Of a stretch of 64,000 nt of DNA, positions 32,193-51,272 are shown in pieces. The notes beneath the pieces were generated by a model. The model searched no databases, was not told where the DNA came from, and saw only the letters and a program-made list of their open reading frames with translations. Source of the DNA: Octopus vulgaris (lineage: Eukaryota); NCBI GenBank assembly GCA_951406725.2, contig OX597820.1, positions 89,714,001 to 89,778,000 on the forward strand, in the 5' to 3' direction. The translations under genes were made by a program, and so were the position numbers. Within the stretch, counting starts at the first letter, position 1. Each line of letters begins with the position of its first letter.

Positions 32193-32516
32193 TTTCGTTT
32201 TTGGGTCTGGTTTGCAAGATTCTTTATATGAATTCGTGTGTTGAAGCATATTCTGTTGTGTCTGGGGAGGGTCATTTTCTTTTTGTGTCTTATAGTTTAA
32301 CACACACCGGTAAAGTTTCCATTTATTTCTTATTTCTATTTTCCTAAAATTTTCTTTGCGTCTTGCAGCCTTTTCACTAGTCAGGTCTATTGAAAAGGTT
32401 GCAAGATGCAACGAAAATTTTAGGAAAATAGAAATAAGAAATAAGTGGAAATTTTACCGGTGAGTGTATTAAATTATAAGACACAAAAAGAAAATGGCTC
32501 TCCCCAGACGCAACAG
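32193..32516. mobile_element. Fold-back PLE-terminal mini-element (arms 32253-32380 / 32387-32516)
   Basis: ~128-bp imperfect inverted arms with a 6-nt loop and a one-sided extension; same family at 42309-42650. Confidence 0.75.
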
Positions 32517-33159
32517 TATATATATATATGCAATCACCAATTTTAAATTCTACCAACACATCTTCAGTTTCTTTTTCAAAATATTGTTAATCTAATTTTA
32601 CATCACTTTAAAATTACGCGTTAAATTAAACATTAAATTAAACATTAAAAATATTAAATTATACTTTATAAAGTTAAGAATTAAAAATTATAAATTATAA
32701 ATTATACATTATGAATATGAATTAGTATAGATATATCAAACTTATAAACTCAATTATATAACGTCAAATACAACATATAAGATGTAAAATATACATCAGT
32801 ATAAAAATGTTCGTGATTGAATGTGAAAAATAACATGAAAGTTGCAGATACATATCCTACTTCTATGGAACCAAGATGTCTTTCAAAATGTCAATTAGAG
32901 GAAATGAAGATAGTAGAGCACTATGGGAATATATAGGTGATTAGTATCAAGGTGGGTATGCATAGATTAATTTAATTTATCTTCTATTATTATCTTCAAA
33001 CTAACTATGTTGAGGAATATATATATAATTTGTGATAATATAAGTTTTAGTATTATTTAACTAATTTGTTTATTTAATTATTTAATGTATTCAAGTACTG
33101 TAGAAATCAAAACTGTGTGATTATAGATTCAAGGATGGCGGGGTTCAATATTTCATTTT

Positions 33160-35160
33160 ATTGAAAGTAAAATTGCTTTTGTGTCTACATTTAACACCTC
33201 ATTCAATAATTTATCTCTAGACTTTATCAGTTTCCTAAATTCTGTTATACAGGAGTGGCTGTGTGGTAAGTAGCTTGCTTACCAACCACATGGTTCCGGG
33301 TTCAGTCCCACTGCGTGGCATCTTGGGCAAGTGTCTTCTACTATAGTCTCGGGCCGACCAAAGCCTTGTGAGTGGATTTGGTAGACGGATACTGAAAGAA
33401 GCCCGTCGTAAATACGTATATATATATATATATATATAGATATGTGTGTGTATGTATGTTTGTGTGTCTGTGTTTATCCCCCTACACACCGAGCTGGTGT
33501 GTTTACGTCCCCGTCACTTAGCGGTTCGGCAAAAGAGACCGATAGAATAAGTACTGGGCTTACAAAGAATAAGTCCCGGGGTCAATTTGCTCGACTAAAG
33601 ATGGTGCTCCAGCATGGCCACAGTCAACTGACTGAAACAAGTAAAAGAGTAAAAGATTAATAAACACATTATATTGCCAACATTATGAGAGTGGTCTCTA
33701 CCTATTTAACTCCAACTAAGGGTTTAATCTCTTTTTCTATATTTTAATTCCCATATATATTTACTTAAATCTGTGGACTTACTTAAAATTAAGATTTTTG
33801 AAAATCTGTTACTGTTGGGAAAATATTTAAAAAATTTCTTTAGCTTATCTATAATTTTATTATTATTGTTCTCAGAGCTTACTATACATTTATAAATTAC
33901 ATTAACAATATTACAATTATTAGAGAGCTTACATTTAGTTTTATCATGACGTGAACATTTTTCTATCTGTTGATTAAGATTCACATCACTATCAGTTATA
34001 TTACGGCTGGAGGTTATATTTATTGTGCAATTATAATAATTATTTAATTTCTTATCATTTATAAAGGAAATGATATTACTTACATTCCTCGATGTTGAGT
34101 AGCCCACTCTTATGGTTTTATTGGAAAATATGTTTGAATAAATGTTGTCCTTATTAAAAGATATTTTTACAATTTTAAGTGTTTCCTTAATAATATTAGT
34201 CATCACTTGAGCCCTATACGGAATAATTAACCATACAATATCCTTTTTATTTTTTTTTACTTTTATATTATCATTATTAGACATCAACGGTATTAAAGTG
34301 TTATTCATCGGTGTATTATATCTCCGCTTGTTTAATTTGCCATGTTTCTTACTATTGATCATATTCTCATTACCAATATCAATATTATTATTGCCATCAT
34401 TAATAATAATTATATTGTTTTTATCTTTATTTACTTTCATATACTATCTTTTATTATTATTCATATTTTTGATGTTAGAATTGTTTTTAGGATTACCTGT
34501 CATATTATTAAGGTGTTCGTAATAATTAAAGGCTTTCATATTAGAGTTATATCCTGCTTCTTTTAATGCCTTATTTTAATATGGGGCATTTTTAAAATTA
34601 AGTGTCATAATCTGAGGATAGCATAGATATTCTTTTGCCTATGTTATCTATTAAAGCTACATTAACTGATCTAGGATGGTTACTTAAAGAACTAATATAC
34701 ATTAAATTTTCATTCAACTTATGGAATGGATGGATCTCATTAGTGACAAGATTAAGGTTGAGGTCTAAATAATTTACTGCATAGTGTTCATTCTCTATAA
34801 ATATATCTAAGCCATGATTCTTAAAGAAATTGTACATTTTTTTCTTAAGTCATTGTAACGACATATTGGAACAATTCCTGGTTAGGTGTAGTAAGTCGTC
34901 CCTATAAAGATCACTCTCTATATTCGTAAATTCTATCTCTAGTTCAAATAAAAGATATAATCCTACAAGATCAGTAACTTGGGCAGAATTAGGAGCGCCC
35001 ATGGGTATGTCAAAACAATCACTTCTGTCTTTTCTTACCCAAAGTTTATCGTTATATTTTATAATAGACTTCATCGCGGCTAACACCACTTTGACTTCAT
35101 CAAATGACTTCATCCTTTCTCGTGGCATATGGTAGGGCCTTCTTTAAATCCACTTCCTTA
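33160..35160 (-). mobile_element. Penelope-like element remnant (RT, thumb, GIY-YIG), split by a SINE
   Basis: FDIPMGAPNSAQVTDLVGLYLL..LYRDDLL; VNYLDLNLNL..SNHPRSV; IVWLIIPY..TIRVGYS; CSRHDKTKCKL..NVIYKC; STDLSKYIWELK; C-terminal KLLNE..KCRHKSNF left of the SINE. Confidence 0.88.
33250..33656 (+). mobile_element. tRNA-derived CORE-type SINE, family C
   Basis: AGGAGTGGCTGTGTGGTAAG A box, GGGTTCAGTCCC B box, TCTTGGGCAAGT CORE-like motif, internal (TA)/(TG) tract; homologous to 56965-57350. Confidence 0.9.
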
Positions 35161-35194
35161 ATAGATGAATAATATATATATGTATATATATATA

Positions 35195-49665: not shown

Positions 49666-49879
49666 CCCTGCACCCAGAGACATGTTTCTGAGTCTTGTCT
49701 CTGGATGCAGGCTTGGCTGGAAGGGGGTGCTTGTCTCCCCCTTGTAAACATAAGGACACAGGAAATGTATGTGTCAAGACCGACAGGGAGCTTTGATGCT
49801 TCCTAGTGCTAAATAGCAATGATGGGATTCCCTTCATGGGACTGTCACGTTAAGTTGACAGTATACAACTGCTCCTTCG

Positions 49880-51015
49880 TTCCACCACTGCTTATATATC
49901 TCTAAAATATTTAGAGATTTAATATTTCTATAACCATAATAGTTATTATATTATTGTATGATTTATAACTTGTATTCTTATTAGAACAATAACATTTTGT
50001 TAATTCTGAAAGAATTAATAAAATTTGGATATATAATATTTATAATCATTAAATTTAATCCATATTTAATTAACTTCAAATCCGGTTACTCCTACGAAAC
50101 TAGTAATATGTTGATATCCATTATTGTAGCCTAACTCTATATCTGTGGGGTATTTAGGTTATAGTATTTACATCCACAAGTTTATCTTCATATTTATTAC
50201 AGAATTCTCCCTACGATAATTTAAGAAAACAAAGAATTTTTTTTTAGGTTTCTATTCAAATTTATTACGGAATTATTTCTCCGATAAACAATAATTATAG
50301 AACTGATAATAAATAGAAGACTTATTCATTTAAAGAGATAATTATCATTTATATTTTTTTACACGTTTCATTACATTTCTAGATAGAGCAAGATCCTGAT
50401 ACTTAATTATATGCACATATATATTATTGTTGTATGTTATAATTACGAAAGATGCTCTTAGACATAAAAGAGTTTGGATTAATATTATTTGAAATAGTTT
50501 TAGATTACACTTAATTATTTTGTCCGTTAAAATTTTTTGGTGATTTTTTCAATTGAATTTTTTCTTGATTGTAATTGAATAGTTAGCGCTCACACTTATA
50601 ATGCATAAACATTTGAATTAATTTTTTACAATCCAGCCGTCCTTTTACACAGAATTTCGTCCATCTTTAAACTCTGGATCTGATGAGACTTATTTATAAG
50701 AGAATTGGTTATATATAAAAAAATTGTATATAAGTCGAAATAAAGTGTTGGCCTCTTGATGTTTTGATAATTTTTTATGTTATTTTATGTTATATTAGAT
50801 TCATAGTATATTATGTTATATTATAATATAAATAAATTATTGGGTTGTCAATTGTGTCTCTCTAATTAATGTTATTATTGTAATTTGCATTATACCCACA
50901 TTTATATGGTATTCAACTGACGTATCAGTGAACTGAATGTTTTATGCACCCCTTTGAAGGAATTATTTCCCTTAGTTTGTGAATGGCCGCAGCTCTGAGC
51001 TGAAACTAGAGAGAA
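49880..51015 (+). mobile_element. AT-rich probable PLE 3' region with hammerhead-like core
   Basis: CTGATGA-GACTTAT...ATAAGTC-GAAA at 50680-50740; composition like the other PLE tails; no clear ORF. Confidence 0.4.
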
Positions 51016-51019
51016 ACAA

Positions 51020-51272
51020 TATATATTATTTACATCATTTACATTTGACGGATATTCGCATCTTGTTTGTTGTTAACACAACTTTTCGGTTGATATACCT
51101 TCCAGCCTTCATCACGTCTCTTGGGAAAATTTCGAACCCGGGTTCCCAAAGACACCTGATGTAGGCTGGAGGCTATATGAGCCAAAACGTGTTAACAACA
51201 AACAAGATGAAGACAAATATCCGTCAAATGTAAATAATGTGCATAATTCCTTTTCTCTTAAATATAGAACTG
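51020..51272. mobile_element. Fold-back mini-element with degenerate hammerhead in both arms
   Basis: Arms ~51032-51126 / ~51145-51240; consensus of the two arms is GACAC CTGATGA AGGCTG-loop-CAGCC GAAAC GTT GTGT. Confidence 0.75.

What the first reader, a model, noticed from the sequence alone, without database searches (positions are those of the whole stretch)
32193..51272. Recurring asymmetric fold-back mini-elements with hammerhead-like motifs, linked to Penelope-like elements
Seen: five short (200-370 bp) insertions of four sequence families (32193-32516 and 42309-42650; 38075-38440; 38475-38676; 51020-51272) share one architecture. Each is a long hairpin with one arm extended, embedded in TA/CA/TAA microsatellite, with a (C/U)UGANGA-stem-GAAA-type motif. 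In four of them the motif lies inside the arm, so both strands encode it; the 38075 motif is weaker and complete on the minus strand only. The same fold-back caps a coding PLE at 46280, and the extension of the 32.2/42.3-kb family is homologous to the terminus of the PLE at 35195-35270. Established: PLE pseudo-LTRs carry minimal hammerheads that cleave as dimers, and PLE insertions often have inverted 5' pLTR copies. Inference: these are either ultra-short PLE insertions made by cDNA snap-back or a self-propagating, retrozyme/viroid-like class of rod-shaped ambisense-ribozyme RNAs that parasitise PLE RT. Either way they would be an abundant dsRNA source in a probable A-to-I-editing-rich cephalopod.
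Basis: partly seen in the sequence, partly recalled or inferred. Interest (0 to 1): 0.8.

Follow-up and report, generated by a model that had tools for sequence, protein, structure and literature searches.

The report
Penelope terminal-repeat fold-back insertions
These 200-370 bp hairpins are real and at least three of the four families carry the terminal repeat of Penelope-type retrotransposons paired head-to-head with an inverted copy; they are likely short by-products made at each insertion rather than a self-copying ribozyme RNA, and would supply much double-stranded RNA if transcribed.

Summary
All five hairpins and the sixth at 46280 are real (7 long non-microsatellite hairpins in the window, 0 in 20 shuffles). 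Families A, C, D carry minimal type I hammerheads of the Penelope-like-element (PLE) kind, but only 1 of 8 arm copies is intact (32390, U3-A8 variant); B has at most a remnant. C's motif matches pLTR hammerheads of coding PLEs (49 of 79 metagenome PLE loci hit by a model, 11 in training). A's extension is a PLE 'tail' encoding a probable ORF start. In public contigs family A is very abundant in three organisms, has two recurring outer ends, and shows 221 different low-depth joints, with about 1% of depth at this copy's turn: no shared hairpin unit. The two arms of each A locus share 14 diagnostic differences against 1 shared by arm type. Best reading: ORF-less inverted pLTR pairs formed at insertion, an architecture already described for PLEs. 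The viroid-like reading is not supported for A, and is untested genome-wide for B-D. Open point: their share of cephalopod dsRNA and editing.

The parts
32193..32521 (-). A1: inverted pLTR pair; tail 32193-32247, tail-bearing arm 32248-32380, centre 32381-32386, tail-less arm 32387-32521; TA repeat both sides
32387..32423 (+). only intact minimal type I hammerhead in the window (U3-A8 variant, bulge before stem II, palindromic 4-nt stem III, cleavage after U), on the tail-less arm of A1
   Evidence: variant described in PMC4209133
32194..32275 (-). 27-codon open frame from an ATG through the tail (9 codons in the arm, 18 in the tail): probable PLE ORF start
   Evidence: no protein hit
42309..42650 (+). 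A2: second, older copy of family A; tail-less arm 42309-42447, tail-bearing arm 42453-42591, tail to 42650; turn 8-9 nt further from the core than in A1; both motifs broken
38070..38440 (-). B: youngest hairpin (129-nt arms, 100%), 88-nt extension; long arm is a chain of four local hairpins; hammerhead remnant at most
38475..38676 (-). C: inverted pair with minimal hammerhead of the type found in coding PLE pLTRs; cores start at 38605 (-) and 38613 (+); 60-nt extension 38475-38534
51025..51272 (+). D: inverted pair with degenerate minimal hammerhead; cores at 51156 (+) and 51115 (-); about 25-nt extension; hammerhead read by eye, not scored by any scan
46280..46422 (+). E: 64-nt fold-back whose turn lies inside PLE coding sequence; no hammerhead
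46359..47995 (+). PLE3: 5'-truncated, decayed PLE (RT thumb to GIY-YIG region) with a hammerhead-like remnant from 47729 (by eye), ending in CA repeat
35200..36630 (-). PLE2: decayed PLE 3' part; weak GIY-YIG match (E 0.004, below Pfam cut-off); hammerhead-like remnant from 35398; tail related to family A
33604..35143 (-). PLE1: decayed, 5'-truncated PLE with RT and C-terminal GIY-YIG region
45092..46282 (+). LINE RT fragment broken off exactly where hairpin E begins; not part of the system

Best explanation
The elements are head-to-head pairs of a Penelope-like terminal repeat with no reading frame between them, and each was likely built on the spot when the element inserted. Shown: hairpin shape; one arm with a tail and one without; two recurring outer ends and many different centre junctions in family A; PLE-type hammerheads in A, C and (by eye) D. 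Inferred mechanism: PLE reverse transcriptase starts internally, 130-185 nt downstream of the hammerhead, at either of two sites (their spacing is the tail). Starting on the 5' copy of the repeat it would run out of template just upstream of the hammerhead, giving a cDNA of only one pLTR. The endonuclease nicks both strands of a TA/CA/TAA repeat; two such cDNAs, one per strand, are likely joined at their 3' ends through short palindromic microhomology (I put this at about 55%), or one cDNA primes on itself (about 45%; needed or at least simplest for E). The hammerhead is a passenger: it is predicted to be locked in the rod and decays. Any read-through transcript would be a 60-140 bp dsRNA.
For: Two recurring ends: A1 and A2 tail-less arms stop within about 3 nt of each other; loose AT-rich ends at 32248 in 67 (X1) and 84 (X5) contigs; PAc RT starts at two sites whose spacing is the tail, cuts and extends both strands, and does not need hammerhead activity (PMC11167929). 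No fixed centre: 221 joints, the 15 best with 1-4 contigs and depth at most 238; depth at 32377 is 39,293 vs 2,749,090 at 32407 in X1 (1.4%; X5 1.4%, X13 0.7%); the 7 listed pieces that reach well into both arms (32253-32339 to 32422-32520) have 0, 2, 2, 6, 8, 9, 11 gap letters; no indel reaches 2%. Arms copied per locus: 14 of 140 ungapped columns are locus-specific, 3 arm-specific of which 2 lie in flank. Turn 4-21 nt before the core in A1, A2, C, D. Same cap on a coding PLE elsewhere: L012 has TA repeat, a 48-nt inverted arm, then a pLTR sharing only 6 nt upstream of the core with its 3' copy; L080 has an inverted hammerhead repeat within about 70-100 nt of a truncated RT. Tail frame: only frame open in A1, the A2 tail and PLE2, with the most synonymous changes (3 of 6 vs 0 of 6 and 1 of 6; 5 of 15 vs 3 of 11 and 1 of 12), as in A. 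vaga Pen2a where pLTR plus tail hold the first 22 codons. In C the 5' strand of stem I survives only on the tail-less arm, which a tail-primed single cDNA would not give. New PLE insertions have a median of 128 bp in Chlamydomonas.
Against: No autonomous parent was found for A, B, C or D (no genome held; peptide search blank). Only family A was tested outside the window, on assembled contigs that drop variants and may lose short loop-spanning pieces of perfect hairpins. Clustering of turns near the hammerhead is partly built in by picking short elements; 201, 217 and 158 contigs run on upstream of 32387 with a similar 30-nt majority in three organisms, so many copies extend further. E's short arm ends inside coding sequence, not at an RT start site. 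B has no clear hammerhead, its turn is about 84 nt from the remnant, and its nested hairpins (z -10.6) are unexplained. Shared arm variants could also come from later gene conversion. The synonymous-change counts are small.
Confidence: 0.78

Rival explanations
1. Non-autonomous hairpin units that are transcribed and re-inserted whole by PLE reverse transcriptase (serial remobilisation), at least in some families such as B.
For: B's long arm holds four stacked hairpins (z -10.6 vs 0.1 for A1's arm), one of which folds back the 5' edge of a dead hammerhead-like motif, as an older cap would; pLTRs suffice in cis for mobilisation (PMC3846280); non-autonomous PLE families exist; one piece in another organism crosses the A1 centre without gaps.
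Against: Family A shows no high-depth shared junction and per-locus arm copying; A1 and A2 turns differ by 8-9 nt.
Confidence: 0.12
2. Viroid- or retrozyme-like rod RNAs with working hammerheads in both polarities that replicate as RNA and are captured by PLE RT.
For: Both strands carry the motif; family A's majority core shows no listed substitution at 32390-32396 among 40 of 109 rows shown; retrozymes are proposed PLE derivatives.
Against: 1 of 8 arm motifs intact; each strand has one sense motif whose 4-9 nt palindromic stem III needs a dimer; the antisense arm precedes it in both polarities and the rod wins by about 44 kcal/mol; retrozymes are head-to-tail tandems, these are head-to-head; no shared unit.
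Confidence: 0.03
3. Remnants of longer PLE insertions: the usual 5' inverted-pLTR cap left behind after deletion or recombination removed the body (solo-pLTR route).
For: Solo pLTRs were ascribed to recombination or deletion in A. vaga; recombination between direct pLTRs would leave an inverted pair plus tail; the LINE is cut exactly at E, which hints at local deletion.
Against: Needs an extra event at each of very many loci; short insertions are the primary product in mutation-accumulation lines; joints with short, variably truncated partner arms look like insertion products.
Confidence: 0.05
4. Palindromic MITEs of a DNA transposon.
For: Long self-complementarity and TA flanks; palindromic DNA repeats drive editing in frog.
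Against: Ends are asymmetric; PLE tail homology; C's motif belongs to PLE hammerheads; E turns inside PLE coding sequence. Only B lacks a PLE link.
Confidence: 0.02

Closest known systems
Inverted pLTR cap with optional tail of EN+ Penelope-like elements (A. vaga Pen2a/Pen3a, PMC3846280; general scheme in PMC8557442; D. virilis Penelope, PMC2377424)
   Same: Head-to-head pLTR copies with a palindromic junction, tail on one end only, ORF start inside pLTR plus tail, microsatellite targets.
   Different: No ORF or 3' pLTR follows; tails are 25-88 nt rather than 30-40; very high abundance for family A.
Minimal PLE hammerheads, including 'dual min-HHRs 100-700 bp apart on opposite strands' in Schistosoma (PMC4209133)
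   Same: Type I minimal motif, palindromic helix III, bulge before helix II, U3-A8 variant, opposite-strand pairs.
   Different: Here the two cores are only 8-41 nt apart, back to back in one rod; nearly all copies are broken.
PAc (Poseidon of Anolis) internal RT initiation (PMC11167929)
   Same: Two fixed 3' ends whose spacing is the tail; AT-rich targets; ribozyme dispensable.
   Different: Inverted joining was not examined in the parts read; clades differ (C resembles the PLE1/PLE3 protein type, clade name not tested).
Non-LTR retrozymes (bioRxiv 10.64898/2026.07.22.740005; PMC7229834 seen as listing only)
   Same: Short, non-coding, pLTR-related, type I hammerhead.
   Different: Retrozymes are head-to-tail tandems with intact ribozymes per unit; these are single head-to-head pairs with sequestered, mostly dead motifs.

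Membership tests
PLE insertion (pLTR structures) | Inverted 5'-truncated copy head-to-head with the direct copy | tested here: met
   6 of 6 hairpins, centres of 5-18 nt
PLE insertion (pLTR structures) | Tail on one end only, with a recurring tail-less end | tested here: met
   Family A. B-D: one-sided extension seen in single copies only
PLE insertion (pLTR structures) | Minimal type I hammerhead in the repeat | tested here: inconclusive
   Met for A and C; D by eye only; not met for B
PLE insertion (pLTR structures) | Sequence link to an RT/GIY-YIG-coding PLE | tested here: inconclusive
   E met; A via tail to PLE2, whose GIY-YIG match is below cut-off; C via motif to 6 or more coding loci; none for B, D; no cognate parent found
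PLE insertion (pLTR structures) | Insertion in microsatellites | tested here: met
   TA, TAA, CA flanks; AT-rich loose ends
Non-LTR retrozyme | Head-to-tail tandem units each with a complete hammerhead | tested here: not met
   Head-to-head pairs; 1 of 8 arm motifs complete
Non-LTR retrozyme | Self-cleaved unit-length and circular RNA | not testable with these tools
   Only contigs were served
Viroid-like ambisense ribozyme RNA | One propagating unit with shared centre | tested here: not met
   Family A only; B-D not tested
Viroid-like ambisense ribozyme RNA | Functional ribozyme in each polarity | tested here: not met
   No locus has two intact motifs; rod sequesters the intact one; cleavage itself not assayed
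MITE | Symmetric terminal inverted repeats with fixed ends and TSD | tested here: not met
   Ends asymmetric by 25-88 nt; TSD unreadable in microsatellite
Naiad PLE (for B) | No hammerhead, (TA)n target, N-terminal GIY-YIG parent | not tested
   First two fit; no parent available

The most novel reading that the evidence does not exclude
Fold-back pLTR pairs in some families (B is the candidate, with nested older caps inside a perfect 129-bp hairpin) are themselves re-copied by PLE reverse transcriptase, forming a serially growing class of non-autonomous hairpin retroelements that is the main source of the exceptional dsRNA and A-to-I hyper-editing load of octopus genomes.
Probability: 0.12. 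Interest if true: 0.72.

Novelty: new member of a known kind. Interest (0 to 1): 0.36.

Why it matters
The structure is a known PLE signature, but stripped to its minimum it is a natural read-out of an unsolved step in PLE transposition: where RT starts and stops and how the inverted copy is made. Tens of thousands of contig pieces of one family allow twin priming and self-priming to be told apart by counting which arm owns the centre. Hairpin arms make up about 2% of this window (about 1% for arms at least 90% alike; my arithmetic), the same order as the unexplained 0.44% of octopus loci able to form long near-perfect dsRNA in PMC5625713 (different measure; octopus repeats were not annotated there, while Penelope was heavily edited in lizard). 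If the host is an octopus, these elements are a directly testable candidate source of that dsRNA. Repeat pipelines would likely mislabel them as MITEs or miRNA hairpins (Rfam's sub-threshold hits are miRNA models).

Tried and rejected
No own genome is held, so copies could not be collected. Rfam gave no hammerhead family. First descriptor missed the U3-A8 variant and found nothing. A family C motif found 0 matches in metagenome contigs. A generic back-to-back hammerhead pattern gave 8 viral-contig matches, 0 of 8 hairpins. Three word-based protein searches were blank, weak evidence; the exhaustive search found 608 relatives of the PLE1 RT piece. Atlas look-up unavailable, so PLE2's clade is open. 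The hammerhead model built from C and 11 PLE loci hits neither A, B, D nor PLE2/PLE3: it covers one motif type, and its covariation counts are inflated because the 11 loci were picked by a pairing descriptor. No RNA holder on record was listed; run X15, only guessed to be RNA, had 2,601 pieces and one crossing the centre, with no excess of A>G/T>C places over DNA runs: no evidence for or against expression or editing. Earlier-scan look-ups returned nothing. Summed depth was not used as a copy number. A pairing between A1's 6-nt loop and either arm was too ambiguous to use. Supplements of the papers were not read; figures of inverted PLE copies there may bear on novelty.
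Full report
Observation. The five hairpins and the one at 46280 are present at the stated coordinates. 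Seven self-inverted stretches of 100 nt or more outside microsatellite occur in the window and none in 20 block shuffles. Arm identities run from 76-79% (D, A2) to 97-100% (E, B); centres are 5-18 nt; A-D have one arm extended by about 55, 88, 60 and 25 nt; flanks are TA, TAA or CA repeats. A1 and A2 are one family.

Surroundings. tblastn with full-length relatives places PLE coding remnants at 33604-35143 (-) and 46371-47403 (+); the 35.2-36.6 kb element has a weak GIY-YIG match (E 0.004, below cut-off). Hairpin E's right arm overlaps coding sequence, so its turn lies inside an ORF. The RT fragment left of E is a LINE and stops exactly where E begins.

Hammerheads. Rfam shows none (150 of 180 rows; 57 of 57) and a canonical descriptor finds none. 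PMC4209133 (parts 1-2 of 4 read) describes minimal PLE motifs with a U3-A8 variant, a bulge before helix II, palindromic helix III, and opposite-strand pairs 100-700 bp apart. The other seven arm copies in A, C, D have core or stem defects (read); D is annotated by eye only. C aligns column for column with motifs beside coding PLEs from metagenomes; a model from C plus 11 of them hits 49 of 79 PLE loci, 38 of the 68 not in training. B has a long stem preceded by a core-like heptamer with a G5 change and no GAAA next to the stem; no scan accepts it. In the whole A1 hairpin the hammerhead pairs have probability 0 and cost about 44 kcal/mol, while stem II forms at 0.99 in the isolated arm; in both polarities the antisense arm is transcribed first.

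The extension. A's similarity to PLE2 is significant in the tail (z 12.4) but not in the arm halves (0.3, 1.1). One frame from an ATG at 32275 is open through the tail and is the only frame open in A1, the A2 tail and PLE2, with the most synonymous changes (small counts; A2 has a frameshift just before the tail). This matches Pen2a, where pLTR and tail carry the first 12 and 22 codons (PMC3846280 section 6). A search for the parent protein was blank.

Genome-wide test, family A only. Contigs of four public runs were laid on 32193-32530 at 80% likeness: 18,585 pieces (about 80% of run X1 read), 18,502 (X5), 8,928 (X13), three organism labels, and 2,601 in a run only guessed to be RNA. A tail-less end recurs at 32248 (67 and 84 contigs with AT-rich loose ends), the place where both window copies stop. 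The centre is not shared: 221 joints, the best-supported 15 with 1-4 contigs and depth at most 238 where single contigs have 24-87; depth just left of the turn is 1.4%, 1.4% and 0.7% of that over the hammerhead; the seven listed pieces reaching well into both arms differ by 0-11 gap letters; no indel reaches 2%. Many joints link a variably short antisense arm to a sense arm beginning just before the hammerhead. Against over-reading: contigs drop variants and may lose short loop pieces; 158-217 contigs per DNA run continue upstream with a similar majority sequence, so a longer parent exists and not all copies stop at the hammerhead. Within the window, 14 of 140 columns separate A1 from A2 in both arms, and 1 (plus 2 in flank) separates arm types: arms were copied from one template per locus, or homogenised later.

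Mechanism. PAc RT starts internally at two sites whose spacing is the tail, cuts and extends both strands at AT-rich DNA, and does not need its hammerhead (PMC11167929, parts 1-2 of 4). In D. virilis the start of transcription is 46 nt before a 75-nt intron (PMC2377424 passages) whose end maps to helix I, so the RNA 5' end lies shortly before the hammerhead. I infer that initiation on the 5' repeat gives a one-pLTR cDNA, and that two such cDNAs, or one cDNA priming on itself, give the inverted pair. Turns lie 4-21 nt before the core in A1, A2, C, D, partly by selection for short elements, but locus L012, a full-length PLE from another source, has the same cap: TA repeat, 48-nt inverted arm, then a repeat starting 6 nt before the core. 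In C the 5' strand of stem I is on the tail-less arm only, favouring two cDNAs; E favours self-priming or later deletion. Self-priming was proposed in PMC3846280 (section 11). Very short PLE insertions are normal (median 128 bp, PMC9977147 passages).

What is known. The inverted 5' copy with a one-sided tail and microsatellite bias is the standard PLE picture (PMC8557442 passages); solo pLTRs are described; retrozymes are head-to-tail tandems related to pLTRs (bioRxiv 10.64898/2026.07.22.740005, parts 1-2 of 5). Ten literature searches of an open-access library showed no paper describing ORF-less inverted pLTR pairs as an abundant class in cephalopods; subscription papers and supplements were not seen. 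PMC2997562 (passages) reports unclassified 90-bp palindromic insertions in a chaetognath, link unknown.

Unexplained. B's long arm is four stacked hairpins (z -10.6; A1 control 0.1). One folds back the edge of the dead motif and could be an older cap that was re-copied; this keeps a propagating-unit reading alive for B.

Verdict. Real, PLE-derived, most likely formed at insertion (0.78); the viroid-like class is not supported. New member of a known kind, interest 0.36, with value as a mechanistic read-out and as a candidate dsRNA source (PMC5625713 passages).

Noticed in passing
window 14505-16925 +: Long, nearly intact LINE ORF (644 aa with RVT_1, one stop, then 161 aa with a restriction-like endonuclease-type motif read by eye) in TAA repeats; Dong/R4-like by recall. 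Decayed relatives at 11039-11667, 42059-42304 and 45092-46282.
   Followed up: partly
window 8713-8831 -: 5S rRNA match (71 bits, above Rfam gathering score) next to simple repeats; possibly a 5S-derived SINE or pseudogene.
   Followed up: no
window 22692-22996: Seventh long hairpin (arms 136-138 nt, 73%, 31-nt centre) made of two copies of a dispersed repeat also at 876-1111, 44381-44973, 51991-52215 and 61383-61795; another dsRNA source, not PLE-linked by any search.
   Followed up: partly
window 38864-38919, 25595-25636, 49195-49232: Three small palindromes (38-56 nt) outside microsatellite; origin unknown.
   Followed up: no
window 49985-50131 +: Short frame with RT-like motifs by eye inside AT-rich decayed sequence left of element D; no Pfam or tblastn support.
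   Followed up: partly
window 51128-51144 and 46352-46359: Centres of D and E contain perfect 12-nt and 8-nt palindromes; A1, A2 and C centres have 4-bp inverted repeats, candidate joining microhomologies.
   Followed up: partly
L012:715-900; L080:3357-3500; L023:2371-2550; L070:1220-1572: Metagenome PLE loci with inverted caps or opposite-strand hammerhead repeats beside the ORF, several ending in TA repeats.
   Followed up: partly
window 29860-31000: TA run of about 1.1 kb, nearly pure over 770 bp.
   Followed up: no
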